Shown: positions 286 to 43,219 of the stretch, one piece after another
Layout of the letters: the number at the start of each line of letters is the position of its first letter
Numbering within the stretch: position 1 is the stretch's first letter
Position numbers and translations under genes: made by a program
Notes under the pieces: model-generated
What the model was told of the DNA's origin: nothing
What the model saw: the letters and a program-made list of their open reading frames with translations, nothing else
Databases searched by the model: none
DNA from: Patescibacteria group bacterium
Lineage (GTDB): Bacteria; Patescibacteriota; Patescibacteriia; Buchananbacterales; UBA6539
Assembly (NCBI GenBank): GCA_034003985.1
Contig: JAVEXP010000001.1
Span: 155,347 to 219,346 of the forward strand
Length of the DNA stretch: 64,000 bases
Reading direction: 5' to 3'

Positions 286-848
286 ACTGGTTTTTGACTT
301 TGACTCAAGTAACAAAGCGAGCGACAAGGTGCCTTTGCGAAGGCAGGGAAGAACGGTCGCGATGTGGCGGTCAGAAGTCAGCCAGCTTGTTAGCCGGCAA
401 CAGTGTTTAAGCGCAAGCTTAACCAATCAGAGTCAGCCGGTTGGCATGGCAAAACGAAGCGCAATTAGGAGAACGAACCATGAAAACCTTCGGCGCCGCG
501 GCAAACACCCGCGGCACCCCAACCAACACGGAGGCCGCGATCAATTAGGGCGGCGAGAAGAATATAGGCTAAGTAGACGGCTAGGTCTAACGCTCGCAAG
601 GTGCTGATCCCACCAATGGCCGTTAAGCGTTGCCTGCCCTCCCAGGTGACCAGTTCCTTTTTCATTCCTCAAACGGCGTTAAGCCAGCGCCGCAGTGTTG
701 TCGGCCCGGTGGCTGACAGCAAAGTAGGTAACCACGCAAGGGTATCCCGATTCCGGGTGGGGATACTTAAGACAGTCAGGCCCGGGCTAGCCTGACATTT
801 TTCCCGGCTGAGAGCCTCTTCCCCTCTCAGTTTTTTTTATCCCCAGGA
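286..848 (+). ncRNA. GC-rich structured RNA candidate of about 500-560 nt, unclassified. I considered RNase P RNA and tmRNA but could not confirm either. No credible ORF. It ends in a strong intrinsic terminator.
   Basis: GC is about 55-60% in a roughly 40% GC genome. Only Arg-rich, nonsense-like ORFs overlap it (329-607, 465-665, 601-795). There are many local hairpins, for example gtatccc...gggatac at 742-768 and gtcaggc...gcctgac at 775-797. Putative promoter: TTGTCT at 252-257 and TAAACT at 274-279. Terminator at 808-838. Confidence 0.4.
808..838 (+). terminator. Intrinsic terminator: ctgagag-cctcttccc-ctctcag followed by T8.
   Basis: Perfect 7-bp stem with a 9-nt loop, followed by tttttttt. 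Confidence 0.65.
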
Positions 849-1845: not shown

Positions 1846-2751
1846 ATGAAAGCCAAAGGATGCAGATTGATCGTCCCGGACGGTTCCTTAATGGACACCG
1901 TTCATCAGTTGTTGGCCGAAGCGGATTGCCCGGTTAGTTATCCCAGCAGCCGGGCTTATCGCGGAATCATTGCCAATCACCGGCTTTTCCCGCCGCCTTT
2001 TCATCTGGTTCACCGGATGCGGCCGTGGGATTCACCGTTGGTGGTAGCCGCGCAACGAGCGGAATTGGCGTTTACCGGCCAAGATTTGATTATCGAAGCC
2101 GGTTGCCAGGATCAGGTGGTGGTCCTGGACAAGTATCCGCTTTCGCGGGGTGGCGTTGGTTTTACCAAGTTGGTGTTGGCAGTGACAAGCGATTCTTTGA
2201 TCAAATCGGTGACAGATCTTGGTCCACAACACCAGGTGGCTACCGAATACCCCAACTACGCGCGGCAGTGGCTGGCGGCCAAGGGTGTTAATCCTCGGAT
2301 TGTCTGCTGCCACGGTTCGTTGGAAGCTTTTGCCGACTTCGCCGACGCGATTTTTGAGAATACCGAAACCGGGACTTCGTTGAAAGTCGGCGGGTGGCGG
2401 ATCATTGAAGATCTACCCAAGTCGCAGACTTGCTTGATTACTTATTCGCAAGCCTTGGAAGATGAAGTTCAGAATGCCATCATCCAGGAATTTCGGATAT
2501 TGCTGAATGCGGTCATGGCGGCGCGTGGCCGAGTGATGATCAAGTGCAATGTCAGACCCGAGAACTGCACCAGCATCGCGGCGCTGTTGCCTTCGGCCGG
2601 CAGGCCAACAATGTCACCGTTGTTCGGTAATGACGGCTTTGCCTTGGAGGCAGTTGTGATGCAGTCGGATGTCGAAAGCCTGCTGCCGGCGCTGAAAAAA
2701 GCCGGTGCGACGGCGATTGTAGTCCATAATATCGACAAATTCTTGCCCTAA
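1846..2751 (+). CDS. hisG: ATP phosphoribosyltransferase, long form, with the C-terminal regulatory domain (HisG).
   Basis: ADAIFENTETGTSLKVGGWRIIED...TCLI matches the HisG catalytic motif ADAIxDLVSTGxTLxxNGL. The C-terminal ALLPSAGRPTMSPL...KKAGATAIVV matches the HisG regulatory domain. RBS GAGGAG upstream. Confidence 0.85.
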   Translation: MKAKGCRLIVPDGSLMDTVHQLLAEADCPVSYPSSRAYRGIIANHRLFPPPFHLVHRMRPWDSPLVVAAQRAELAFTGQDLIIEAGCQDQVVVLDKYPLSRGGVGFTKLVLAVTSDSLIKSVTDLGPQHQVATEYPNYARQWLAAKGVNPRIVCCHGSLEAFADFADAIFENTETGTSLKVGGWRIIEDLPKSQTCLITYSQALEDEVQNAIIQEFRILLNAVMAARGRVMIKCNVRPENCTSIAALLPSAGRPTMSPLFGNDGFALEAVVMQSDVESLLPALKKAGATAIVVHNIDKFLP

Positions 2752-16660: not shown

Positions 16661-18241
16661 ATGCCTAATCATAAAAAAAATAATACCCATAAGCCGTTAG
16701 TATTTCTGATCCTTGACGGCTGGGGGATTGCTCCAAAGAGCCCGGCTAACGCCATTGAACTTGCCAAAAAACCAAATTTTGATTATTTGTGGAACAACTA
16801 TTCCCATACCAAACTTCAAGCATCGGGAAAATATGTCGGTTTACCCGATGATCAGCCTGGCAATTCCGAAGCCGGTCATATGAATATCGGCGCGGGGCGG
16901 GTGGTTGAACAGGATTCGGTGACGATTTCCAAGGCCATTAATACCGGAAAATTTTTTAAGAATCCGGCGTTTGAGGCCGCTTGTACTCATCTTCGGAAGA
17001 ATAAATCGAATTTGCATATTATGGGAATGCTTTCTGATGGTCAAAGCGCTCACAGCGACCCCGATCATTTATTGGCGCTGATTGCCTGGGCGCGAATGAA
17101 AAAAATCAGAAATGTTTATTTACATTTGTTTACTGACGGTCGTGATTCGCCGCCACATTCAGCACTGAAATCAGTCGAGGCCTTGATGCGACAGTTGAAA
17201 AATAAGGAGCAGGGCAGTCAGCGCAGCGGCGAGTGGATTGCCACAATCATGGGGCGATTTTACGCAATGGATCGGAAAAAGGCTTGGCCCCGGACGGAGC
17301 GGGCTTATCAGGCGATGGTTTTGGCCAGGGGCATTGGTGCCAAGAGTCCTCAGGCGGCAATTACCCAGTCTTATAATCGGGGCGAGACGGATGAATTTAT
17401 TCCGCCCTATGTCATGAAACGGGGAGGCAAACCAATCGCCAAAATCAAAGACGGCGACGCAATTTTATTTTTTAATTTACGGAGCGATCGGGCGCGCCAG
17501 TTAGCCAAACCGTTTGTCCAGCAAAATTTTACCGAAGACAATTCCAACAGCTTCAAGCGCCAGAAGGTTTTAAAAAATATTGTCTTTGTGGCCATGACCG
17601 ATTTCGGTCCTGATCTTGATTCGATTTTAACGGCTTTCCCATCTGATGATATCGTCGGCACTTTACCGATGGCATTAGCCGGCTATAAGCAGCTTTATAT
17701 TTCCGAAAAAGAAAAATACGCCCATGTAACTTATTTTATTAACGGCGGTTATCCTGATCCGGTGGCCGGTGAGAACAGAATATCAAAACCATCGCCGGAA
17801 GTGGCATCTTATGATCAAAAACCGGAAATGAGTGTTTATCAAGTGACTGCTGAAGTTTTGCGAGATTTGGATAAATATGATTTTATCGCCATTAATTTTG
17901 CCAATCCTGATATGGTTGGCCATACTGGGAACATTAAAGCGGCGATCAAAGCCGTTGAAGCCTGTGACAAGTGTTTGGGTAAAATAAAAGACAAAGTTCT
18001 ATCGCGTCGGGGGATATTGGTGATTACGGCTGATCACGGTAATGCCGATAAGATGCTGGACTTGGAAACCGCTGAAATGTATACTGAACATACTACCAAT
18101 CCGGTGCCTTTTATTATCGTTGAGCCAAAAAAAATTAGTCGGCGCTTGAAAAGAGGAAAATTGGGTGATATCGCGCCGACCATTTTAAAATTAATGAAAG
18201 TCAAAAAACCTAAACAAATGACTGGTAAACCTTTGTTTTAA
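16661..18241 (+). CDS. gpmI: 2,3-bisphosphoglycerate-independent phosphoglycerate mutase (iPGM), copy 1.
   Basis: LVFLILDGWGIAP, MGRFYAMDRKKAW, NFANPDMVGHTG and ITADHGNAD motifs. Confidence 0.9.
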   Translation: MPNHKKNNTHKPLVFLILDGWGIAPKSPANAIELAKKPNFDYLWNNYSHTKLQASGKYVGLPDDQPGNSEAGHMNIGAGRVVEQDSVTISKAINTGKFFKNPAFEAACTHLRKNKSNLHIMGMLSDGQSAHSDPDHLLALIAWARMKKIRNVYLHLFTDGRDSPPHSALKSVEALMRQLKNKEQGSQRSGEWIATIMGRFYAMDRKKAWPRTERAYQAMVLARGIGAKSPQAAITQSYNRGETDEFIPPYVMKRGGKPIAKIKDGDAILFFNLRSDRARQLAKPFVQQNFTEDNSNSFKRQKVLKNIVFVAMTDFGPDLDSILTAFPSDDIVGTLPMALAGYKQLYISEKEKYAHVTYFINGGYPDPVAGENRISKPSPEVASYDQKPEMSVYQVTAEVLRDLDKYDFIAINFANPDMVGHTGNIKAAIKAVEACDKCLGKIKDKVLSRRGILVITADHGNADKMLDLETAEMYTEHTTNPVPFIIVEPKKISRRLKRGKLGDIAPTILKLMKVKKPKQMTGKPLF

Positions 18242-18242
18242 T

Positions 18243-19829
18243 ATGGCTAATCAACAGATAAAACCGATAATGCTATTGATTCTCGACGGTTTTGGTGTTG
18301 CCCCGCCAAGTAATAGTAACGCGGTTTCTTTAGGTAAGAAACCGGTTTTGGATTATTTTATTGCCAATTATCCGACTTTGACATTGCAGGCATCGGGCGA
18401 AGCGGTTGGGTTGTCTTGGGGAGAAATGGGTAATTCGGAGGTCTGTCATCTTAATTTGGGTTCGGGGCAGATAATTTATCAGACTTTGCCGAAAATCAAC
18501 AAGTCAATTGAAGACGGGACGATCAAAAAAAATGATAAACTATTGAAAGCAATCGACCACGCCAAAAAAAATAAGTCAAAGCTTCATTTGATGGGGTTGG
18601 TGTCAAACGGCGGGGTACATTCTCATCATGATCATCTATATGCTTTATTGGAAATGTGCAAGGAACGGGGAGCCGGTGAAGTCTATATTCACGCTTTTTT
18701 GGACGGCCGCGACACGGCCAAAGACGGTGCCAAGGAATTTATCAAGTCGCTTCAAGCCAAGTTGACTGAAATGAAGTTTGGTCAAATTGCCAGCTTGAGC
18801 GGACGATATTATGCTATGGATCGCGATAATAATTGGGAGCGAGAAGAAAAAGCTTACCGGGCGATTGCTTTGGGGGATTCACCGGCCAAGTTTGATGATC
18901 CGGTCAAAGCGATTGAAACCTCATATGGTAATCAGGTGTTTGATGAGGAATTTATTCCGGCGGTGATTACCCGCGGCGGCAAGCCGGTGGCAACAGTCAA
19001 CGATAATGACGCGATGATATTTTTTAATTTTCGGGCTGATCGAGCCAGACAGTTGGCCGCGGTGTTTGCGGTTCCAGGATTTGATAAATTCGCCAAGCCG
19101 GCAGTCAAAAATTTTCAACTAACTACCTTTACTGAATACGAAAAGGATCTGCCGGTTGATGTAGCTTATCCCGATGAAGACATTCAGCTGCCACTGGCAA
19201 AACTTTTTTCGAATTTGAAACTAAAACAGCTCCATGCGGCCGAAACGGAAAAATACGCCCATGTTACTTTTTTCTTCAATGGTCGCAAAGAAGACCCGTT
19301 TGAAGGTGAGGATCGGATTTTGGTGCCGTCTCCGGCGGTTTCCAGTTATGATCAAAAACCGGAAATGAGCGTTAACGAATTAACGGCTAAGCTCCTTAAA
19401 GCAATTAAAACTAATCAGCATCATTTATATATTGTTAATTTTGCCAACCCGGATATGGTCGGACATACTGGCGTAATCCCCGCAGCTGTCAAGGCCGTTC
19501 AAGCCGTTGATAAAGCCATCGGCCAGCTTTGGGATGCTATGTCACAAGTCGGAGGAACGCTGATGATTACGGCCGACCACGGCAATTGCGACGAAATGAT
19601 TAATCTTCAAACGGGAGAAGTTTCCAAAGAACATAGCACTAACCCGGTGCCTTTTATTGTGGTTGGTGAACAATGGAAAGGCAAGAGCTTGGTTTCGGGG
19701 TTGGATAGTGCTAACGGTGATTTGAGTGTTTTGACGCCCTCGGGAATTTTGGCTGATATTTCGCCGACCATTCTAAAACTATTAGAGATTGACCAACCCT
19801 CGGACATGACCGGCAGTCCGCTGGTTTAA
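18243..19829 (+). CDS. gpmI: 2,3-bisphosphoglycerate-independent phosphoglycerate mutase (iPGM), copy 2. A tandem paralog.
   Basis: IMLLILDGFGVAP, SGRYYAMDRDNNW, NFANPDMVGHTG and ITADHGNCD motifs. Diverged from copy 1. Confidence 0.9.
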   Translation: MANQQIKPIMLLILDGFGVAPPSNSNAVSLGKKPVLDYFIANYPTLTLQASGEAVGLSWGEMGNSEVCHLNLGSGQIIYQTLPKINKSIEDGTIKKNDKLLKAIDHAKKNKSKLHLMGLVSNGGVHSHHDHLYALLEMCKERGAGEVYIHAFLDGRDTAKDGAKEFIKSLQAKLTEMKFGQIASLSGRYYAMDRDNNWEREEKAYRAIALGDSPAKFDDPVKAIETSYGNQVFDEEFIPAVITRGGKPVATVNDNDAMIFFNFRADRARQLAAVFAVPGFDKFAKPAVKNFQLTTFTEYEKDLPVDVAYPDEDIQLPLAKLFSNLKLKQLHAAETEKYAHVTFFFNGRKEDPFEGEDRILVPSPAVSSYDQKPEMSVNELTAKLLKAIKTNQHHLYIVNFANPDMVGHTGVIPAAVKAVQAVDKAIGQLWDAMSQVGGTLMITADHGNCDEMINLQTGEVSKEHSTNPVPFIVVGEQWKGKSLVSGLDSANGDLSVLTPSGILADISPTILKLLEIDQPSDMTGSPLV

Positions 19830-23822: not shown

Positions 23823-24827
23823 ATGATTAAGAAAATCGGAATTGATTTGGGAACCATGAACTCTTTGGTCTATGTGCCAAAGAGGGGAATTGTAATTAAT
23901 GAACCATCGGTAGTGGCGGTGTCGATAGTTGATAAAAAAATTTTGGCAGTAGGAGTAGAAGCCAAAGAAATGTTGGGTCGAACTCCCGATACGATTATTG
24001 CGGTTCGGCCAATGCGCGACGGCGTAATTGCTGACTATAAGATAACCGCGGCAATGCTGCGCTATTTTGTAAATAAATCATTGGGTGGCGTTAGGTTGTT
24101 TAGGCCGGAAGTGATGGTGGCCGTGCCGGCCGGTATTACTTCGACTGAACGGCGGGCGGTGATTGACGCGACAATTGCGGCCGGCGCCAAAGCCGCTTAT
24201 ATTATCAAGGAACCAATCGTCGCGGCGATTGGCGCCGGTATTCCCATTGGTTCACCATCAGGACACATGATCATTGATATCGGCGGTGGAACTTCGGAAA
24301 TGGCGGTTATTTCGCTGGGTGGGATTGTGGCCTCAACCTCGGTGCGAGTAGGCGGCAACCGTTTTGACAGTGCGATTGCTGAATATATCAGACGGAAATA
24401 TAATTTGGCAATCGGCGAACGAACGGCCGAACGAATTAAGATTGACATTGGTTCGGCCATGTATATGGAAGAGCGTTTAACCAGCGAAGTCAGAGGGCGC
24501 GATGTTGTGACTGGCTTGCCGCGAACAATTAGTGTTAGTTCGGACGACATTACTGATGCCATCCAAGTTGAACTGGAAGGAATAATCCAAGCTGTTAAAG
24601 ATGTTTTACATAAAACCCCACCGGAGCTTTCAGCCGATGTGATTGACAAAGGCATTATTATGTCCGGCGGTTCAAGTTTGTTGCGCAATATTGATCAGTT
24701 GATTACTCAGGTTACCGGCGTACCGGCTTATATTGCTGATGAAGCTTTATTCTGCGTCGCCAAAGGCACGGGAATAGCTTTGGAAAATTTGGAGTCTTAC
24801 AAACGAAGCATTCTGGCAATCAAGTAG
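23823..24827 (+). CDS. mreB: MreB/Mbl-family actin-like protein, paralog 1.
   Basis: IGIDLGTMNSLVYV, DIGGGTSE and an actin-fold ATPase motif pattern. Confidence 0.85.
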   Translation: MIKKIGIDLGTMNSLVYVPKRGIVINEPSVVAVSIVDKKILAVGVEAKEMLGRTPDTIIAVRPMRDGVIADYKITAAMLRYFVNKSLGGVRLFRPEVMVAVPAGITSTERRAVIDATIAAGAKAAYIIKEPIVAAIGAGIPIGSPSGHMIIDIGGGTSEMAVISLGGIVASTSVRVGGNRFDSAIAEYIRRKYNLAIGERTAERIKIDIGSAMYMEERLTSEVRGRDVVTGLPRTISVSSDDITDAIQVELEGIIQAVKDVLHKTPPELSADVIDKGIIMSGGSSLLRNIDQLITQVTGVPAYIADEALFCVAKGTGIALENLESYKRSILAIK

Positions 24828-32725: not shown

Positions 32726-33784
32726 ATGTTTAATCGACTATTTAAAAAGTTTTCTCGAGATGTCGGTATTGATCTGGGGACTTCCAATACCCTGATTTAT
32801 GTTAAAGATCGAGGTATTGTGGTGAACGAATCATCAATCGTGGCGGTCAATAATCGTAACGATCAGATTTTGGCGGTCGGCGAAGAAGCTCAGAAAATGT
32901 TGGGCAAAACGCCGCCGCACATTACAATTTCCAAGCCGTTGGTGGACGGAATAATTTCGGATTTTGAGGTGACGGAAAAGATGCTTAAATATTTTATCGA
33001 CCGATTGTATAAAGAAAGTTTTGGTTTATCGCCCCGGCCGCGAGTGGTTATCGGAGTACCGTTGGATGTGACGGAGGTGGAAAAAAAGGCGGTGGAGGAT
33101 GTGGTTTTGTCGGCCGGTGCCCGTGATGTTTATTTGGTGGAAAATGTGATTGCTACGGCGATTGGCGCCAGACTGCCCATTCAGGATCCGTCAGGGAGTA
33201 TGGTCGTTGATTTGGGCGGTGGCATTACGGAGATTGCGGTCATTTCGCTTTCCGGAGTGGTAGCTTGGAAATCGTTGCGGATTGCCGGTAATAAGATGAA
33301 TCAGGATATTATGGGTTTTGCGCGAAGCGAATTTAATTTGTTGGTTGGGGAACGAGTAGCCGAGGAAATAAAAATTCAAGCCAGCCGTCTAGTTGACAGT
33401 CAAGAACCTCTTGAATTAAGAATGCGTGGTCGTGATTTGATGACCGGCCTGCCCAAAGAAGTAATTGTAACAACTTCCCAAATTAAGCAATCAATGCAGC
33501 GTTCGGTTTTGGGGATTATTGAAGGTATTAAGAGTACGCTGGAAATAACCCCGCCAGAATTGGTGGCCGATATTTACCAGCGCGGCATGATTTTAGCCGG
33601 CGGCGGAGCATTATTGAGCGGTTTGGACAAGATGATTGCCCAGGCCACTCGGATTCCGGTAAAAATAATCGAAGATTCTTTAACCTGTTCGGTTCGGGGC
33701 ATGGGTTTGATTTTGGAAGACGAGAATTTATTGCGGGAAGTGGCCATCCCTTCGTCCACTCAGGAAGAGAAGACTTCGCGTTAG
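32726..33784 (+). CDS. mreB: Rod shape-determining protein MreB, paralog 2, heading the mreBCD-mrdA cluster.
   Basis: VGIDLGTSNTLIYV, DLGGGITE and actin-fold motifs. Confidence 0.9.
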   Translation: MFNRLFKKFSRDVGIDLGTSNTLIYVKDRGIVVNESSIVAVNNRNDQILAVGEEAQKMLGKTPPHITISKPLVDGIISDFEVTEKMLKYFIDRLYKESFGLSPRPRVVIGVPLDVTEVEKKAVEDVVLSAGARDVYLVENVIATAIGARLPIQDPSGSMVVDLGGGITEIAVISLSGVVAWKSLRIAGNKMNQDIMGFARSEFNLLVGERVAEEIKIQASRLVDSQEPLELRMRGRDLMTGLPKEVIVTTSQIKQSMQRSVLGIIEGIKSTLEITPPELVADIYQRGMILAGGGALLSGLDKMIAQATRIPVKIIEDSLTCSVRGMGLILEDENLLREVAIPSSTQEEKTSR

Positions 33785-38061: not shown

Positions 38062-38138
38062 TTTTGTTAAAAAAAGAGAGGCGGCAATTTTTGGTTGTCG
38101 CCCCAAGGAAAACATTGGGCACTCGGAGTGCCTTTTTT

Positions 38139-39371
38139 TCAGAAGTAGAGAGTGAAGCCGGCTGAAAATACATCGACTTCAGTCTCATACCGTCCTGGAG
38201 ACAGGTTGTTGAACGATTGTCCAATTTCCTGTTTGACCCAAGCATGGAGGTATGCTAGGTCAAATGACCAGTTATCCTGATGGTAACCCAGGCCTAGTCC
38301 GACGCAGAATCCCTGGCCGTCAGGGATCACCGGATTGGTGGTGTCGTTGGGTACGGCTGGGCCGAGCCAGCCAACCCCCATCCGACTAGTCAAATGCTCG
38401 TTGAGTTGGCGCTCTATCCCCAGATGAGCGCTGAAAGATTTGTCCCAGTCCAGGCGCTGACGGATGGTTGGCAGCTTTCCGAAATCGAAGTCGATTCGGT
38501 CAGTCTGGCTATAGTCAAACCAGTTGACATCGAAAGCCACCAAATATTCGTTGTTGGGCTGCCAGGCAAATCCCAAACCCAATCGTGCCGGAAAGGTGAC
38601 ATCGGCGTCGAAGCCGTCGCGCCCCAGATTCAGTCCTGCCAACGAGATGTCGGTGTGACCTTTGAGGGCAATTTTCATCCGTGAGGAATAGCTCAGGGCC
38701 AATGCCAGGCGTTCATCGGGTTGCCAACGAATACCCAGACGATAACCCCAACCAAATCCGTCGCCTTCAGTCACTAAATCGGTGAGATCCAGTCTGACGC
38801 CGCCAATCTGGTGCAGGGGTGTGTGGTAGAGCAATTGGCCATAGCCAAGGTCTAATCCCACCCCGATACTCAGAGTGTCGGTGAGTTCATAGCTGAATCC
38901 ACCGGTGAGGTTGACTACGGCCAGCAGACTTTGGCGGTAGTTAAGACCCGGGTAGCGGTTGTTCGGGTATTTGACGCCCAAGCCATAGGGAGCGTATATT
39001 CCCGCTCCCAGTACCAGCCTGTCGGACAGGCGGGTGGCACCGGCTACTAGCGGCATAGTGAATAGCTGATCTTCCGACTGTTCTTCGAATCCGCCCCAGC
39101 TATCCGGCAGACGGTATTCAAAGTCGGGTGAAATGAAGTCGCCCGAAATTTGCAGGAAAGAGCCATCAACCTGGCTTAATCCCGCAATGTTGTGGTACAG
39201 TGCCGAGCCGTCGGAAGCTACGGCATTGTGGGCACCAGACATGCCCAGAGCTCTGGGGGTAAGGCTGGCGCCGGGACGGATAACACCACCACCAAACGCC
39301 GTCTGACCACAAAGTACTACCACCGCTAAGCAAGCCGCCCACTTAATATTCATCAGGTTCCTCCTTATCAT
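38139..39371 (-). CDS. FadL/OmpP1/TodX-family outer-membrane beta-barrel, a hydrophobic-compound transport protein. GC-rich.
   Basis: Signal peptide. N-terminal hatch motif ...ASDGSALYHNIAGL matches the FadL NPA(G)L region. Alternating amphipathic strands. The C-terminus ends ...GFTLYF (terminal Phe). About 56% GC. Confidence 0.7.
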   Translation of the reverse strand: MIRRNLMNIKWAACLAVVVLCGQTAFGGGVIRPGASLTPRALGMSGAHNAVASDGSALYHNIAGLSQVDGSFLQISGDFISPDFEYRLPDSWGGFEEQSEDQLFTMPLVAGATRLSDRLVLGAGIYAPYGLGVKYPNNRYPGLNYRQSLLAVVNLTGGFSYELTDTLSIGVGLDLGYGQLLYHTPLHQIGGVRLDLTDLVTEGDGFGWGYRLGIRWQPDERLALALSYSSRMKIALKGHTDISLAGLNLGRDGFDADVTFPARLGLGFAWQPNNEYLVAFDVNWFDYSQTDRIDFDFGKLPTIRQRLDWDKSFSAHLGIERQLNEHLTSRMGVGWLGPAVPNDTTNPVIPDGQGFCVGLGLGYHQDNWSFDLAYLHAWVKQEIGQSFNNLSPGRYETEVDVFSAGFTLYF

Positions 39372-39552
39372 CTTGTGTGCTTAACACGGGTTTCTGTTTT
39401 TACGGCTTTTTAAATTACCACATTTAAGTAAAAAAGTCAATATTGTATATTTTATAATTGACTTTTTTGTTGTATTATGATATTAATAAGAGTTGTCCTT
39501 TTAATTGGGTATAAGTGAATCCAACCGTGCTAAACACGAAAGGGTTAGGGCT

Positions 39553-40530
39553 ATGAGTATGTCAACGATTTTGGCAGTACCTACGGTCGAGGTGGCAGTT
39601 GACCCGGAGATTCCGGATGTCACAATCACAATGGTCGAGCAGTGTCGGCCGATCTCCACCTACACCTACGAGAGGTTGCGTTGGCTCTATGTGCTGACAT
39701 TTCCTCTCTCGGTTGCCCTAACCTTGTGGGTTATGGGCAAGAAGTTTTTGTGTTTGGCATTGGGTCGTCCAATGCCAAGAATCAACACCATCTTTTTTGA
39801 TGGTTTGGGGGAGGAGTGCCGCCAGATCAAGATGGGCGAGGCCTCGTGGAAAGCCCTGCATGTCATCTATAACCATGTTTTTAAGTGGGGATGGCGGGTC
39901 GACACTTTCGTTGACAATTATTGGATCGGCATGGTCAATGCACAAGCGGTGCGTAACCGCTTCAAGTTGGTCAAGCAGGAGATCCGGCGGGCCATCATGT
40001 CGGTCTACGACGGAGCGGAAGTAAGAATTATGTCCCTGGCCTGCGGTTCGGCCCAAGCTATCATTGAAGTGATGGCCGAAATGAAACAGAAAGGGATCGT
40101 GGTTCGGGCAATGCTGGTCGACAAGGACCAGGACGCGCTTGACTATGCGATGCAACTTGCCAATGAGCATGGTTTGCAAGATCGTGTCAGCGTCGTTTGC
40201 GATACCGTCTCAAATGTCGAGTTCTTGGCAGCTGACTTTCGGCCTCAGATCATTGAGATGCTGGGGCTGCTGGACTACCTGCATCAGCTCAAAGCCATTG
40301 ATCTGGCTGCCAAGATCTATCGGTCGCTGCCCGACAAAGGCTGGTTTCTCACCTGTAACATTGCCCATAACTTCGAGATGTGGTTCCTGCGGTGGGTAAT
40401 TAACTGGCCGATGATCTATCGGACGCCTCGGCAGTTGGCGGAAGTGGTGCTCAAAGCCGGCTTTGCCGATTGTCGGCTGATTTACGAGCCCCATCGAGTC
40501 CACGGATTGGTAGTCACCCAGAAGGTGTAA
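39553..40530 (+). CDS. Membrane-associated class I SAM-dependent methyltransferase-like protein. GC-rich.
   Basis: Motif I LACGSAQ, acidic post-I LVDKD, motif II VVCDTV, and one predicted TM helix near the N-terminus. Start taken at the ATG at 39553 preceded by AAAGGG. Confidence 0.5.
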   Translation: MSMSTILAVPTVEVAVDPEIPDVTITMVEQCRPISTYTYERLRWLYVLTFPLSVALTLWVMGKKFLCLALGRPMPRINTIFFDGLGEECRQIKMGEASWKALHVIYNHVFKWGWRVDTFVDNYWIGMVNAQAVRNRFKLVKQEIRRAIMSVYDGAEVRIMSLACGSAQAIIEVMAEMKQKGIVVRAMLVDKDQDALDYAMQLANEHGLQDRVSVVCDTVSNVEFLAADFRPQIIEMLGLLDYLHQLKAIDLAAKIYRSLPDKGWFLTCNIAHNFEMWFLRWVINWPMIYRTPRQLAEVVLKAGFADCRLIYEPHRVHGLVVTQKV

Positions 40531-40602
40531 ACCTTCAAGAACGGTGGCTTGGGCCTGGGAAAAATGCTATACTGAAAGCAGTTTTCCCAGGTTCTATTTT
40601 TT

Positions 40603-42807
40603 ATGGCGTTAATATTTCCTTACGCTCTATCGGCCTTAATTAATGCACTAACCAGTTTGATACTCGGGACTTTTGTTGTTGTTAAAAATTTTCGAAATAA
40701 AGTTAATCTAACTTTTGGCTTGTTTGCCTTTAGTGTAGCTTTCTGGAGCATCGGCTATTATTTATGGCAGATGTCGGGAACAAGTGAAATAGCCTTATTT
40801 TGGTGTAGGGTTTTAATGGCCGGGGCAATATTTATTCCAATTTTTTATTTTCATTTTGTATTGGCATTGATTGGTCTGTTGGAAAAAAAACGCTTGGTCC
40901 TGGTTGTTGGCTATGTTATTTTTATTTCTTTTTTCTTTTTGAATTTTACTTCGTTTTTTGTTAATCGAGTTGAGCCAAGATTATATTTTAAATTTTGGCC
41001 ACTTCCTGGTCCTGCTTATCACGGATTTTTGATTTTATGGTTTTTGTATGTTGCTTATTCAACTTATTTGTTGTATCAGAAGTATAAGAATTCTTCCGGC
41101 ACTATAAGGCAACAAATAAAGTATGTTTTTTTGGGAATGGTCATTGGTTTTGCTGGCGGCTCAACTAATTATTTGCTGTGGTATGGTATACCAATCCCAC
41201 CAGTAGCAAATATTTTAGTTTCGGTTTATGTTGGTTCAATTGCTTATGCAATTGCCAAATATCGCCTAATGGATATTAGATTTTTTGCTCGCAAGGCATT
41301 CATTTATTTTGGAATGGCACTTTTTACTTATTTAATGTTTTATTTTGTTGCTTGGCTATATCTAGCTTTCGCTGATGGGATATTTACTTCGACATCCTAT
41401 TTGACAGGGTTAATAATTGCTCCGTTTTTTGTATTTTTCTTTTATTTAGTTAACCATTTTTTAAAGTTGGTGGCTAATAAATATTTTTTTGCCAGTCTTT
41501 ATAATTATCAAGAAACAATCAATAAATTAACTCGGGAGCTTAATTATTATACTGATTTGAATAAAATTATTGATTCAATTGTCGAGACGATCAAAAATAC
41601 CATGCAGTTGGATCGCGCCGGTGTTTTGTTGATTAATCAAAATGTTAAACCAGTTCATTATCAAATTGCCAAAGTCATCGGTTTTAATGAGCATAACGGC
41701 ATTAGCTTGGTTCAGGATAATTTTTTGACCAGATATTTGGAAAGCAGCCAGAAACCACTGGTTAGAGAGGAGCTGGCTTTGTTGGCAAACAATGCCACCA
41801 GGCAGAAAGACAAAGAAAGCTTTGAACAGTTGGCCGAACACATGAAGCGCATTGAAGCCTCGCTTTGTTTGCCGCTGACCAGCAATACCAAACTGATTGG
41901 TATAATTGTTTTAGGGTCAAAAGCCTCGCGTGATGCCTATACTAATGAAGATTTAGAGCTTTTGAGCACTCTTTCATTGCAGGCGGCTATCGCGATTGAT
42001 AATGCCAGACTTTATCAGGAGGTACAGAATTTCAACAAGAATTTACAGCAGAAAGTTGATATCCAAACTCAAGAAATAACTAAGAAAAATCAGTATCTTC
42101 AGGAATTGCTTAAAATGAAAAACGAATTTTTAAACATCGCTTCCCATCAGCTCAAAACGCCGATTTCCATTACGCGCGGGTACTTGTCAATGATTCTGGA
42201 CGGTACTATCAAAGAACAAGCCAAACAGCAGGACGCGCTGGAAAAGGCGATGGGCGGAATTAACCGGCTTAATGAAACAGTCAAGAATTTTTTGGATGCC
42301 TCCGATTTGGAGGGGAAAGAGATGGAGCTGGAAATCGCCAAAACTGATATTTTGAAATTGATCGAAGATTTAATTGCCGCCAAGAAAATTCTGGCCGAAA
42401 ATAAAGGTTTAGTTTTGGAATTCATTAAACCTAAAGAAAAGATTCCAAGTTTTAATTTGGACGGCTCAAGGTTAACTGAAGCCATTTCCAATCTGATAGA
42501 TAATGCGATATTTTATACTAACGAGGGCAAGGTTTGTGTTAGTCTTAATGTTAGCAATAATGAAATAATCATCTCGATTCAGGATACCGGCATTGGTATC
42601 TCCCCCTCAGAACAGAAAAATTTATTTAATAAATTTCGCCGCGGCAAGCGGGCAATTTTGGCTAAGCCTGACGGTTCGGGGTTGGGACTGTATATTTGTA
42701 AAAAAATTGTTGAGCTACATAAAGGCAAAATAGTCTTAGAGAGTGCCGTTGGGCAAGGAACCAAGTTTATAATTCAACTTCCGACAAATTTGAAAGCGCT
42801 AAAATAA
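40603..42807 (+). CDS. Sensor histidine kinase with a 7TM N-terminal domain, GAF, HisKA and HATPase_c.
   Basis: Multiple TM helices in the N-terminal 290 aa, H-box IASHQLKTPIS, and N/G1/G2 boxes (DNAIFYT, QDTGIGI, GSGLGL). Confidence 0.85.
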   Translation: MALIFPYALSALINALTSLILGTFVVVKNFRNKVNLTFGLFAFSVAFWSIGYYLWQMSGTSEIALFWCRVLMAGAIFIPIFYFHFVLALIGLLEKKRLVLVVGYVIFISFFFLNFTSFFVNRVEPRLYFKFWPLPGPAYHGFLILWFLYVAYSTYLLYQKYKNSSGTIRQQIKYVFLGMVIGFAGGSTNYLLWYGIPIPPVANILVSVYVGSIAYAIAKYRLMDIRFFARKAFIYFGMALFTYLMFYFVAWLYLAFADGIFTSTSYLTGLIIAPFFVFFFYLVNHFLKLVANKYFFASLYNYQETINKLTRELNYYTDLNKIIDSIVETIKNTMQLDRAGVLLINQNVKPVHYQIAKVIGFNEHNGISLVQDNFLTRYLESSQKPLVREELALLANNATRQKDKESFEQLAEHMKRIEASLCLPLTSNTKLIGIIVLGSKASRDAYTNEDLELLSTLSLQAAIAIDNARLYQEVQNFNKNLQQKVDIQTQEITKKNQYLQELLKMKNEFLNIASHQLKTPISITRGYLSMILDGTIKEQAKQQDALEKAMGGINRLNETVKNFLDASDLEGKEMELEIAKTDILKLIEDLIAAKKILAENKGLVLEFIKPKEKIPSFNLDGSRLTEAISNLIDNAIFYTNEGKVCVSLNVSNNEIIISIQDTGIGISPSEQKNLFNKFRRGKRAILAKPDGSGLGLYICKKIVELHKGKIVLESAVGQGTKFIIQLPTNLKALK

Positions 42808-42811
42808 ATAT

Positions 42812-43219
42812 ATGGCTAACCAAAAAAAAGTTTTATTTATTGAAGACGAACCGGGGTTGATTGATATTTATCATTTGACTTTTGATGCTCATGGTTATCA
42901 ATTTTTTTCGACAGCCGATATTGAAGAGGGTATGATCATCGCCAAAACCCAGCAACCGGACATTATTCTTTTGGATATTATTTTGCCGGAAAAGAGCGGT
43001 GATTCGGTTAATATCTCGGCCAAACAAGGGCTGGTATTTTTAAGCCGAGCAAAAAGCGACAAACAAATTAAGGATATTCCGGTTGTGGTTTTTACCAACC
43101 TTAACTCTTCGGCTGATCGCCAAAAAGCCAAGGAACTGGGAGCGGTGGACTATCTGGTTAAGGCGGACAACTTGCCTGATGAAGTGTTTAAAAAGGTAGA
43201 TAAATTCTTGAATCAGTAA
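42812..43219 (+). CDS. Single-domain response regulator (REC only).
   Basis: VLFIEDE, phospho-acceptor Asp in ILLDIILP, and a conserved Lys region. Confidence 0.8.
   Translation: MANQKKVLFIEDEPGLIDIYHLTFDAHGYQFFSTADIEEGMIIAKTQQPDIILLDIILPEKSGDSVNISAKQGLVFLSRAKSDKQIKDIPVVVFTNLNSSADRQKAKELGAVDYLVKADNLPDEVFKKVDKFLNQ

What the first reader, a model, noticed from the sequence alone, without database searches (positions are those of the whole stretch)
38100..40560. GC-rich two-gene island: a FadL-family outer-membrane barrel divergent from a membrane SAM-methyltransferase, with shared palindromic motifs in the intergenic region
A roughly 2.4-kb, 55-58% GC segment encodes a FadL/TodX-type hydrophobic-substrate OM channel (hatch motif, C-terminal Phe) on the minus strand. 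A TM-anchored class-I methyltransferase is on the plus strand. The 180-nt AT-rich divergent promoter region contains a 12-bp inverted repeat, AAAAAGTCAAT-(15)-ATTGACTTTTTT, at 39431-39468. It also contains two copies of the near-palindromic motif GTGCT(T/A)AACACG (39381-39392 and 39525-39536), each 15-25 nt upstream of one of the two start codons. This looks like a co-regulated uptake-and-modification module for a hydrophobic compound, probably acquired horizontally. It also implies the organism has an outer membrane.
Basis: partly seen in the sequence, partly recalled or inferred. Interest (0 to 1): 0.6.

Follow-up and report, generated by a model that had tools for sequence, protein, structure and literature searches.

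The report
FadL outer-membrane barrel in a CPR bacterium
A gene for a FadL-type fatty-acid channel, a protein normally found only in bacteria with two membranes, sits under purifying selection in a Patescibacteria (CPR) genome, a group thought to have one membrane, attached to a methyltransferase/sensor-kinase gene set that is conserved across CPR.

Summary
The sequence features are real, with small corrections. The minus-strand gene (38139-39353) is a genuine FadL/TodX barrel: Pfam E=7e-44, and an AlphaFold model with TM about 0.8 to E. coli FadL. The plus-strand gene (39553-40530) is a Methyltransf_20 class-I methyltransferase with one hydrophobic N-terminal helix.

The interpretation needs revising.
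- **Organism.** The window is from a Patescibacteria (CPR) MAG, so "the organism has an outer membrane" does not follow.
- **Unit.** The methyltransferase is not an island partner of the barrel. It is the first gene of a CPR-wide set: methyltransferase, then a 7TM-GAF histidine kinase, then receiver-only response regulator(s). This set was seen in 10 of 10 loci.
- **FadL.** FadL is an optional add-on to that set, in varying orientation. It belongs to a CPR-specific clade of about 45-50 clusters at 50% identity. It is under purifying selection (dN/dS 0.08).
- **GC excess.** The excess is gene-specific and persists at 42-59% amino-acid divergence, and in loci that lack FadL. It is not evidence of recent transfer.
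- **Motifs.** The 12-bp inverted repeat is two mirror-image TTGACT -35 boxes. The GTGCTWAACACG pair is only marginally non-random and is not conserved in the ten related FadL loci.

Best reading: a module for uptake, modification and sensing of a lipophilic compound. Where the barrel sits in the cell is unresolved.

The parts
38117..38133 (.). GC-rich hairpin GGGCACTCGGAGTGCC with a T-run on the + strand. It is a terminator between the SpoU-type methylase gene and the 3' end of FadL.
   Evidence: Terminator scan hits on both strands; sequence.
38139..39353 (-). FadL/TodX-family beta-barrel gene of 404 aa. It has a signal-peptide-like N-terminus (MNIKWAACLAVVVLCGQTAFG|GG), a hatch segment with NIA in place of the family's NPA, and a C-terminal ...TLYF.
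   Evidence: Pfam PF03349 E=6.9e-44. PDB profile E about 1e-24 to FadL, TodX, TbuX and CymD. AF2 pLDDT 87 and pTM 0.85. Foldseek TM 0.80-0.82 to E. coli and P. aeruginosa FadL. dN/dS 0.083 against L005. NPA column.
39412..39440 (-). Candidate FadL promoter: TTGACT (39440-39435), 17-nt spacer, TAATTT (39417-39412).
   Evidence: Sequence. The same TTGAC(A/T)-T-rich-N17-TAATAT layout lies upstream of FadL in L013 and L003. The -10 is too weak for the consensus scanner.
39377..39388 (+). GTGCTTAACACG, copy 1, in the FadL 5' leader 23 nt from the ATG.
   Evidence: Not conserved in the ten related FadL loci. Region-level shuffle p about 0.1.
39430..39468 (.). Perfect 12-bp inverted repeat AAAAAAGTCAAT-N15-ATTGACTTTTTT. 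It consists of two back-to-back -35 hexamers (TTGACT) with their T-tracts, one for each divergent gene.
   Evidence: (4 of 3000 shuffles). L003 has GTCAAT-N13-ATTGAC at its own divergent FadL promoter.
39458..39486 (+). Candidate methyltransferase promoter: TTGACT, 17-nt spacer, TGa-TATTAA (extended -10-like).
   Evidence: Sequence. Inference only; not reported by the consensus scanner.
39527..39538 (+). GTGCTAAACACG, copy 2, in the methyltransferase leader 14 nt from the ATG.
39553..40530 (+). Class-I SAM methyltransferase of 325 aa in Pfam Methyltransf_20. It has a hydrophobic helix at about residues 44-70 followed by KK, and a Rossmann domain with SLACGSA and an invariant Asp188.
   Evidence: PF12147 at 31.9 bits against a 21 cut-off. 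230 homologues; the named ones are CPR apart from one labelled Candidatus Pacearchaeota. Invariant columns. AF2 pLDDT 89 with helix 42-67. Kyte-Doolittle 19-residue maximum 1.65. Nearest solved folds are small-molecule O- and C-methyltransferases.
40551..40602 (+). Hairpin (40551-40594) plus T-run. The loop carries an extended -10 box, TGCTATACT (40565-40573). It is a nested terminator and promoter between the methyltransferase and the kinase.
   Evidence: RNAfold -27 kcal/mol. The same design, with different stem sequences and TGnTATAAT in the loop, occurs in L002, L015, L017, L016, L019, L020, L021 and L006; coordinates.
40603..42807 (+). Histidine kinase: HisKA_7TM sensor, GAF, HisKA, HATPase_c.
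   Evidence: Pfam. Immediately downstream of the methyltransferase in all 10 independent loci.
42812..43219 (+). Receiver-only response regulator of 135 aa with no DNA-binding domain.
   Evidence: PF00072 is the only family hit. One or two such genes follow the kinase in L002, L008, L015, L016, L017, L020 and L021.

Best explanation
Shown. The segment is the variable front end of a CPR-specific membrane signalling and modification module.

- The core is a membrane-anchored Methyltransf_20 SAM methyltransferase (MT), then a 7TM-GAF histidine kinase (HK), then one or two receiver-only response regulators (RR). This core is conserved across Patescibacteria.
- In a minority of lineages, a FadL-family beta-barrel from a CPR-specific clade is attached to the core. 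It is divergent from MT here and in L016. It is co-directional with MT in L002, L015, L017 and L019. In L011 it sits next to a CER1-like reductase gene instead of the MT.
- The barrel gene is intact and under purifying selection. It keeps a signal peptide, a hatch and a terminal Phe.

Inferred.

- The barrel passes a lipophilic compound, such as a fatty acid or a fatty-acid derivative, across an outer barrier of the cell.
- The MT sits at the cytoplasmic face of the membrane and methylates a lipophilic substrate.
- The 7TM kinase senses that compound, or membrane state, from within the bilayer and signals through receiver-only regulators.
- In gene order and domain types this resembles the Ralstonia phcBSRQ system, in which a methyltransferase makes a fatty-acid methyl ester that a membrane kinase senses.
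- FadL and MT are transcribed from mirror-image promoters whose -35 boxes form the 12-bp inverted repeat. A terminator with a promoter in its loop separates MT from the kinase.
- The GC excess is a long-standing property of these genes, not a mark of recent import.
For: - Family assignments: FadL; MT; HK, RR.
- CPR origin: source names. Window gene content (group-3b-like NiFe hydrogenase, lower glycolysis, Ddl, FtsQ, TagA/WecG, PcsB-like peptidase).
- MT followed by HisKA_7TM HK in 10 of 10 loci.
- FadL lies within two genes of a HisKA_7TM kinase in 7 of 7 loci where both flanks are visible. L003 also has a 7TM fragment next to FadL.
- Neighbours that replace the MT are lipid-type reductases: CER1-like_C in L011 and an NAD-binding reductase-like gene in L003.
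- One clade: an NJ tree puts all CPR-labelled FadLs (Buchananbacteria, Falkowbacteria, Patescibacteria, Paceibacterota loci) in one group of about 45-50 of 148 representatives, with Nitrospinota outside.
- Selection: dN/dS 0.083. FadL is syntenic in L013, next to PBP2-MreDCB-ProRS.
- Promoters. MT-HK hairpin.
- Phc analogy: PMC8578825 describes phcB (methyltransferase), phcS (kinase) and phcR/phcQ (receiver proteins without DNA-binding domains).
Against: - No outer-membrane biogenesis gene turned up among the window ORFs scanned or in the annotated flanks. The few CPR organisms described have a monoderm wall. It is therefore unclear where a 14-stranded barrel would be inserted, or by what machinery.
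- The NPA hatch motif, nearly universal in the family, is NIA here and is degenerate in much of the CPR clade. That could mean a changed function.
- A close relative (L005, 86% identity) carries two in-frame stops and a 5-codon deletion, so the gene is dispensable in at least one lineage.
- The MT substrate is unknown. There is no solved close relative and no literature on PF12147. The hydrophobic helix only just reaches a transmembrane threshold.
- Homology of the MT and HK to PhcB and PhcS was not tested.
- Only 8 members of the 'CPR clade' carry taxon names, and the tree has no support values.
Confidence: 0.6

Rival explanations
1. A recently imported two-gene island (FadL plus methyltransferase) from a GC-richer diderm donor, co-regulated by a transcription factor that binds the shared motifs, in an organism that has an outer membrane.
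For: GC and GC3 excess of both genes. FadL is the only minus-strand gene in about 52 kb. The 12-bp inverted repeat is non-random. Exact copies of the 12-mer occur only here in the window.
Against: - The methyltransferase (MT) family appears CPR-restricted among named hits, apart from one labelled Candidatus Pacearchaeota, and is always followed by the same kinase.
- FadL sits at a syntenic site in L013 at 52% identity.
- The GC3 excess persists across 42-59% divergence and in FadL-less loci.
- No tRNA, integrase or flanking repeats were seen.
- The motifs are absent in L016, which has the same divergent layout, and in the other related FadL loci.
- Closest named relatives are CPR, not diderms.
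Confidence: 0.1
2. The barrel is not a transporter of the CPR cell's own envelope. It is exported through Sec and used at the interface with a host. It might insert into a host outer membrane to draw lipids, or serve as an adhesin or docking protein. The precedent is FadL-fold proteins with non-transport roles, such as PorV, BamG and FilD.
For: - From my own knowledge: CPR are largely epibionts and lack fatty-acid synthesis.
- The barrel keeps a signal peptide and a terminal Phe, yet no outer-membrane machinery is visible nearby.
- The NPA hatch motif is degenerate.
- Foldseek also matches BamG and PorV, and NCBIfam gives partial hits to FilD, PorV and BamG.
Against: The best structural and sequence matches are true FadL and TodX channels, with TM 0.8 against 0.6 for BamG. 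From my own knowledge, no mechanism is known for inserting a barrel into a foreign membrane from outside. The linkage to a methyltransferase and a kinase suggests handling of a small molecule.
Confidence: 0.12
3. The FadL-bearing CPR lineages are in fact diderm, or have an outer lipid layer, and the barrel is an ordinary outer-membrane channel there.
For: There is a deep, single CPR clade under purifying selection. A terminal aromatic residue is retained as often as in diderm homologues (33 of 41 against 78 of 100). Cell-wall data exist for very few CPR (PMC8871954).
Against: No Omp85/BamA, Lpt, Tol-Pal or OmpA-type gene appeared among the window ORFs scanned or in the annotated flanks of L001, L002, L010 and L011. 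TagA/WecG and a PcsB-like peptidase in the window look like monoderm traits. FadL is rare: only 7 of 185,579 species representatives matched the scan pattern.
Confidence: 0.1
4. The FadL gene is a functionless remnant, or an assembly or binning artefact.
For: L005 carries two stop codons and a deletion. The composition is odd. L013 and L016 are labelled 'Gammaproteobacteria'.
Against: - dN/dS is 0.083.
- Intact genes occur on at least 10 independent contigs from different samples.
- In the window and L013 FadL is flanked by core housekeeping genes (PBP2, MreBCD); the window contig also carries the methyltransferase that NCBI names Patescibacteria.
- L013 is syntenic with the window and both 'Gammaproteobacteria' contigs are about 39% GC, so the label is probably wrong.
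Confidence: 0.04

Closest known systems
E. coli FadL, P. aeruginosa FadL homologue, and TodX/TbuX/CymD (OMPP1/FadL/TodX family, PF03349)
   Same: 14-stranded barrel with an N-terminal hatch, a signal peptide and a C-terminal Phe. HMM and profile matches are strong. The predicted fold superposes at TM about 0.8.
   Different: Only 17-22% identity. The NPA hatch motif is NIA. The host is a Patescibacteria genome with no visible outer-membrane machinery. The gene is linked to a methyltransferase and 7TM-kinase set rather than to fad or tod catabolic genes.
Ralstonia phcBSRQ quorum-sensing operon (PhcB methyltransferase, PhcS kinase, PhcR/PhcQ receiver proteins)
   Same: The gene order is methyltransferase, membrane histidine kinase, then one or two receiver proteins without a DNA-binding domain (compared). 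In Phc, a lipophilic fatty-acid methyl ester is made by the methyltransferase and sensed by the kinase.
   Different: This is an analogy only. Sequence or structural homology to PhcB and PhcS was not tested. The CPR kinase has a HisKA_7TM plus GAF sensor. No LysR partner is seen. A terminator-promoter hairpin separates the methyltransferase from the kinase.
Pfam Methyltransf_20 (PF12147), NCBI name 'class I SAM-dependent methyltransferase family protein'
   Same: Above the Pfam cut-off, with a Rossmann fold and conserved SAM-binding residues.
   Different: The family has no characterised member that I could find. The CPR subfamily adds an N-terminal hydrophobic helix. The first roughly 70 model positions are not matched. 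The nearest solved folds are only TM 0.56 or lower: 3ocj, SgvM, PigF, RosA.
FadL-fold proteins with non-transport roles (PorV of the type IX secretion system, BamG, FilD)
   Same: Same fold class. Weak NCBIfam and Foldseek matches.
   Different: The matches fall far below the family cut-offs (for example FilD 52.7 against 970 bits). TM is about 0.6 against 0.8 for true FadL.

Membership tests
OMPP1/FadL/TodX (PF03349) | Family HMM above the curated threshold over nearly the full length | tested here: met
   150.4 bits against a 29.7 cut-off; residues 21-393 align to model positions 10-406 of 421. PDB profile hits to FadL, TodX, TbuX and CymD at E 1e-24 to 1e-18.
OMPP1/FadL/TodX (PF03349) | 14-stranded beta-barrel plugged by an N-terminal hatch | tested here: met
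   Prediction only. AF2 pLDDT 87 and pTM 0.85. Helical and coil N-terminus at residues 26-61, followed by about 14 long strands. Foldseek TM 0.80-0.82 to FadL structures.
OMPP1/FadL/TodX (PF03349) | Conserved NPA motif in the hatch | tested here: not met
   The window has N-I-A. NPA is present in 109 of 156 aligned sequences. It is replaced by NVA, NIA, NLG or NLA in many of the top 45 hits, which form the CPR clade.
OMPP1/FadL/TodX (PF03349) | Sec signal peptide and C-terminal aromatic beta-signal | tested here: met
   Read from the sequence; no predictor was run. N-terminus MNIKWAACLAVVVLCGQTAFG|GG and C-terminus ...GFTLYF. 33 of 41 clade members end in F, W or Y.
OMPP1/FadL/TodX (PF03349) | Resides in an outer membrane and is assembled by BAM | not testable with these tools
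   Only 64 kb plus flanks could be read, and no Omp85, Lpt or Tol-Pal gene was found there. The few CPR described are monoderm. A whole-genome screen is needed.
OMPP1/FadL/TodX (PF03349) | Transports long-chain fatty acids or other hydrophobic compounds | not testable with these tools
   Inferred from family membership and from lipid-type neighbours: CER1-like_C in L011 and a reductase-like gene in L003.
Methyltransf_20 (PF12147) class-I SAM methyltransferase | Family HMM above the cut-off, Rossmann fold and SAM-binding motifs | tested here: met
   31.9 bits against a 21 cut-off, model positions 72-295 of 309. Invariant S159, L160, G163 and D188. AF2 alternating beta/alpha core with pLDDT 89.
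   Kyte-Doolittle 19-residue maximum is 1.65, at residues 52-70 (1.62 at 44-62), just over the usual 1.6 threshold. AF2 predicts one long helix at 42-67. Invariant P49 and K61-K62. No topology predictor was available.
Phc-type methyl-ester quorum sensing (phcBSRQ) | Operon of methyltransferase, sensor kinase and receiver-only regulators | tested here: met
   Met only at the level of domain order. MT-HK-RR occurs in the window; MT-HK-RR-RR occurs in L016, L020 and L021. Phc layout from PMC8578825.
Phc-type methyl-ester quorum sensing (phcBSRQ) | Homology of the methyltransferase to PhcB and of the kinase to PhcS; signal is a 3-hydroxy fatty-acid methyl ester | not tested
A protein search of plasmids gave no Ralstonia hit, but phc is chromosomal as far as I recall.
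Recently acquired genomic island | Atypical composition, mobility genes or tRNA or repeats at the edges, and absence from relatives | tested here: not met
   Composition is atypical. But there is no tRNA in the window and no integrase in the flanks. FadL is at the same site in L013. The GC3 excess recurs in diverged and in FadL-less loci.
Shared operator / regulon motif | Motif over-represented and conserved upstream of orthologues | tested here: not met
   Exact copies occur only here, but the region-level shuffle gives p about 0.1. The motif is absent upstream of FadL in all ten related loci (L002, L003, L011, L013-L019) and of the methyltransferase in L002 and L016.

The most novel reading that the evidence does not exclude
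A deep clade of outer-membrane-type FadL barrels, under purifying selection, is maintained in Patescibacteria that have no BAM machinery. If so, one of three things is true. These CPR lineages may keep an unrecognised outer lipid barrier. They may insert a 14-stranded barrel without BAM. Or they may export it into a host's outer membrane to take fatty acids they cannot make. In each case the barrel would be wired to a methyltransferase and 7TM-kinase circuit that senses or tags the acquired lipid.
Probability: 0.2. Interest if true: 0.85.

Novelty: new variant of a known kind. Interest (0 to 1): 0.62.

Why it matters
CPR/Patescibacteria make up a large share of bacterial diversity. They are thought to have a single membrane and to depend on other cells for lipids.

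A conserved FadL-type channel in several CPR lineages gives a concrete handle on two open questions. The first is what the CPR envelope looks like. The second is how these cells obtain lipids, or sense lipophilic signals from hosts.

The linked set of methyltransferase, 7TM kinase and response regulator is widespread in CPR and has no assigned function. A variant with a fatty-acid channel attached points to the class of ligand to test.

The case also shows that a local GC excess can be a stable property of a gene rather than a sign of recent transfer.

Tried and rejected
- **Rfam and tRNA scans of the window.** Nothing found. There is no tRNA-linked island.
- **Literature.** Searches for PF12147/Methyltransf_20 and for FadL with Patescibacteria or CPR returned nothing relevant.
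- **Word-indexed protein search.** It suggested only about 6 relatives. The exhaustive HMM search showed this was a sensitivity limit: there is a continuum, with about 45-50 clusters in the clade.
- **Relaxed C-terminal beta-signal in the CPR clade.** Rejected: 33 of 41 end in an aromatic residue, against 78 of 100 in lower-ranked homologues.
- **The 12-mers as RNA hairpins.** Only 3-4 base pairs form on the transcribed strands, so this was not pursued.
- **Covariation test on the methyltransferase-kinase hairpin.** RNAalifold on the MAFFT alignment predicted no pairs because the alignment was out of register. I relied on the single-sequence folds instead.
- **Solved relatives of the methyltransferase.** Sequence search found none useful.
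- **afdb50 fold search.** The library was unavailable.
- **Pseudanabaena plasmid.** A distant methyltransferase homologue there lies next to a kinase and a receiver gene. This is suggestive only.
- **GC excess as high-expression codon bias.** Glycolytic and cell-shape genes in the window have ordinary GC3.


Full report
**Observation**

The region was read directly.

- A 404-aa ORF lies on the minus strand at 38139-39353. AAGGAGG sits 7 nt upstream of its ATG. The protein ends in ...GFTLYF.
- A 325-aa ORF lies on the plus strand at 39553-40530.
- The 199-nt spacer between them is 32% GC.
- FadL is 54.7% GC (GC3 0.60) and the methyltransferase (MT) is 52.7% (GC3 0.67). The other 58 ORFs in the window average 41.8% GC and GC3 0.43, giving z-scores of 3.2 and 4.2.
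- The inverted repeat is AAAAAAGTCAAT-N15-ATTGACTTTTTT at 39430-39468. The 12-mers are at 39377-39388 and 39527-39538.
- In 3000 dinucleotide shuffles of the spacer, a perfect 12-bp inverted repeat appeared 4 times. Some 12-mer direct repeat with at most 1 mismatch appeared 294 times.
- The inverted repeat is therefore clearly non-random. The direct repeat is only marginally so.

**What the two proteins are**

The minus-strand protein is a FadL/TodX-family barrel.

- It matches Pfam Toluene_X (PF03349) at E=6.9e-44 over nearly its full length.
- A profile of it and its relatives hits E. coli FadL, TodX, TbuX and CymD in the PDB at E 1e-24 to 1e-18.
- Its AlphaFold model (pLDDT 87, pTM 0.85) has a helical N-terminal plug and about 14 long strands. 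It superposes on FadL structures at TM 0.80-0.82.
- One family hallmark is missing. The hatch NPA motif reads NIA.

The plus-strand protein is a class-I SAM methyltransferase.

- It passes the Pfam Methyltransf_20 cut-off, at 31.9 against 21 bits.
- It has a confident Rossmann model with one long N-terminal helix at residues 42-67. That helix only just reaches a transmembrane hydropathy threshold.
- The SLACGSA motif and Asp188 are invariant across 60 homologues.
- Its nearest solved folds are small-molecule O- and C-methyltransferases at modest TM. No close solved relative exists.

**Whose genome**

NCBI names both proteins as from a 'Patescibacteria group bacterium' MAG, on a 331-kb contig. 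The same stretch was recovered in a Logan assembly of SRR25572339.

The window carries these genes:
- a group-3b-like NiFe hydrogenase;
- PGK, enolase and two iPGM genes;
- two MreB genes, MreC and PBP2;
- Ddl and FtsQ;
- a TagA/WecG transferase and a PcsB-like M23 peptidase;
- several tRNA synthetases.

Almost all are on one strand. Nothing in the window ORFs I scanned, or in the annotated flanks of related loci, belongs to outer-membrane biogenesis. The few CPR cells that have been described have a monoderm wall (PMC8871954).

**The real unit**

I looked up where homologues are encoded.

- The MT family has 230 detectable relatives. The named ones are CPR groups (Magasanikbacteria, Buchananbacteria, Paceibacterota, Vogelbacteria), apart from one labelled Candidatus Pacearchaeota.
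- In every locus examined the MT is followed directly by a HisKA_7TM histidine kinase. This holds for the window, L002, L006, L008, L015, L016, L017, L019/L010, L020 and L021.
- The kinase is usually followed by one or two receiver-only response regulators.
- Most of these loci have no FadL. FadL is an add-on:
  - divergent from MT in the window and L016;
  - co-directional and upstream of MT in L002, L015, L017 and L019;
  - upstream of a CER1-like_C reductase gene and the kinase in L011;
  - next to a 7TM fragment and a reductase-like gene in L003.
- Between L002/L015 and L017, nucleotide similarity of about 86% begins about 100 nt upstream of FadL and ends at the regulator's stop codon. The flanks show no similarity. 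The conserved, and possibly mobile, block is therefore the four genes, not the two GC-rich ones.
- The adjacency of the regulator region to AspRS is shared between the window and FadL-less L008.
- L013 carries FadL next to PBP2-MreDCB-ProRS, exactly as the window does.

**The FadL clade**

- The word-indexed searches found only six close clusters.
- An exhaustive HMM search of 1.84 billion representatives found 850 at E<1e-30, with no sharp gap.
- Names recovered for the high scorers are Buchananbacteria, Patescibacteria and Falkowbacteria. A Nitrospinota protein appears at 183 bits.
- In an NJ tree of the top 148, all CPR-labelled sequences fall in one clade of about 45-50 leaves that excludes the Nitrospinota protein. 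The tree has no support values, few leaves carry taxon names, and the outgroup sequence was recalled from memory.
- A scan of 185,579 species representatives found seven carriers. Two are labelled 'Gammaproteobacteria'. They are about 39% GC, and one is syntenic with the window, so that label is probably an error.
- Window against L005 (86% aa identity) gives dN/dS 0.083 with dS 0.76. L005 itself has two in-frame stops and a 5-codon deletion. The gene is selected in this lineage and was recently lost in a neighbour.

**Composition**

- FadL is about 50-55% GC in hosts of 35-45% GC. GC3 z-scores range from 0.9 to 4.1. FadL matches its host only in L011, whose genome is itself GC3-rich.
- The MT is GC3-rich in the window, L002, L015, L016 and L017. 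It is also GC3-rich in FadL-less L020 and L021, while the kinase next to it is AT-rich.
- These genes are only 42-59% identical to each other, so synonymous sites are long saturated. Recent import cannot explain the pattern.
- I have no tested explanation. It is recorded as unexplained.

**The spacer**

- Each arm of the inverted repeat is a TTGACT hexamer with a T-tract. Each is followed after exactly 17 nt by a -10-like box: TAATTT for FadL, and TGa-TATTAA for the MT.
- FadL in L013 and L003 has the same TTGAC(A/T)-T-rich-N17-TAATAT promoter. L003, also divergent, has GTCAAT-N13-ATTGAC.
- The inverted repeat is best read as two mirror-image promoters. An operator role is not excluded.
- The 12-mer has no counterpart upstream of FadL in the ten related loci, or upstream of the MT in L002 and L016.
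- The neighbouring regulator has no DNA-binding domain.

**The MT-kinase junction**

Its loop holds an extended -10 box, TGCTATACT.
- Eight other loci have the same nested design, with different stem sequences and a conserved TGnTATAAT loop.
- This looks like a terminator for the MT transcript with the kinase promoter inside it.

**Mechanism**

Shown:
- a FadL-fold barrel gene under selection;
- an intact SAM methyltransferase with a hydrophobic helix;
- a 7TM-GAF kinase and receiver-only regulators;
- tight and repeated linkage between these genes.

Inferred:
- The barrel admits a lipophilic compound.
- The methyltransferase modifies a lipophilic substrate at the membrane.
- The 7TM kinase senses it within the bilayer.

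Three things support the inference.
- The substitutes for the MT are lipid-type reductases.
- From my own knowledge, CPR lack fatty-acid synthesis.
- The Ralstonia phcBSRQ operon has the same order of parts and uses a fatty-acid methyl ester as its signal.

That comparison is an analogy. Homology to PhcB and PhcS was not tested. Where the barrel resides is open, and this is the most interesting point.

**Novelty**

I found no paper on FadL-family proteins in CPR. Databases already label some of them 'outer membrane protein transport protein' or 'aromatic hydrocarbon degradation protein'. The protein is a new, divergent branch of a known family, in an unexpected host and in a new genomic context.

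Noticed in passing
window 290-840 (+): About 550 nt at roughly 55% GC with no convincing ORF. It is bounded by a hairpin at 213-243 and a terminator-like CTGAGAG...CTCTCAG plus T8 at about 808-838. There is no Rfam match at gathering score or at E<=1. The MFE z-score is -1.7 on the + strand and -0.7 on the - strand. It may be an undescribed large non-coding RNA.
   Followed up: partly
window 40551-40602; also L002 7340-7389, L015, L017, L016, L019, L020, L021, L006: Terminator hairpin whose loop carries an extended -10 promoter (TGnTATAAT), conserved between the methyltransferase and the kinase. The stem sequences differ between loci. The automatic alignment was out of register, so no formal covariation count was made.
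   Followed up: partly
window 1846-2751 (+), with 1348-1722 and 910-1212: A lone hisG (ATP phosphoribosyltransferase) gene is a third GC3-rich outlier (GC3 0.63). It lies next to an unscanned 124-aa ORF (1348-1722) that by eye resembles a histidine-biosynthesis enzyme, and a TrpR/YerC-like ORF (by eye). No other his genes were found in the window ORFs I scanned.
   Followed up: partly
L020 6001-6972 and L021 2639-3610: The methyltransferase is GC3-rich (0.57 and 0.54) against AT-rich neighbours (0.24-0.44) even where no FadL is present. This is a persistent gene-specific GC excess with no tested explanation.
   Followed up: partly
L005 23-1129: The closest relative of the window's FadL (86% aa identity) has TTG>TAG, GAG>TAA and a 5-codon deletion. 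It is either a recent pseudogene or reflects errors in a 1.1-kb contig.
   Followed up: yes
L013 and L016 (CAZHUO010000025.1, CAZCCC010000023.1): These MAGs are labelled 'uncultured Gammaproteobacteria' but are about 39% GC. L013 carries PBP2-MreDCB-ProRS in the same order as the window. L016 carries the FadL-methyltransferase-kinase-regulator set. The taxonomic label is probably wrong.
   Followed up: partly
window 13337, 25465, 59147, 63871 (+): Extended -10 boxes (TGnTATAAT) lie only about 5-15 nt upstream of start codons of several genes. This suggests very short or absent leaders.
   Followed up: no
window 16661-18241 and 18243-19829; 23823-24827 and 32726-33784: There are two tandem cofactor-independent phosphoglycerate mutase genes and two MreB genes within the same 64 kb.
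   Followed up: no
L002 4872-9983, L017 7900-13006, L015 7865-12953: The four-gene block FadL-methyltransferase-kinase-regulator is about 86% identical at the nucleotide level between loci whose flanks share nothing. The similarity ends exactly at the regulator's stop codon. No terminal repeats were seen.
   Followed up: partly
L022 (Pseudanabaena sp. PCC 7367 plasmid, NC_019690.1 140630-143249): A distant homologue of the methyltransferase (25% identity) lies tail-to-tail with a HAMP histidine kinase and a 125-aa response regulator, beside a Tn3 transposase.
   Followed up: no
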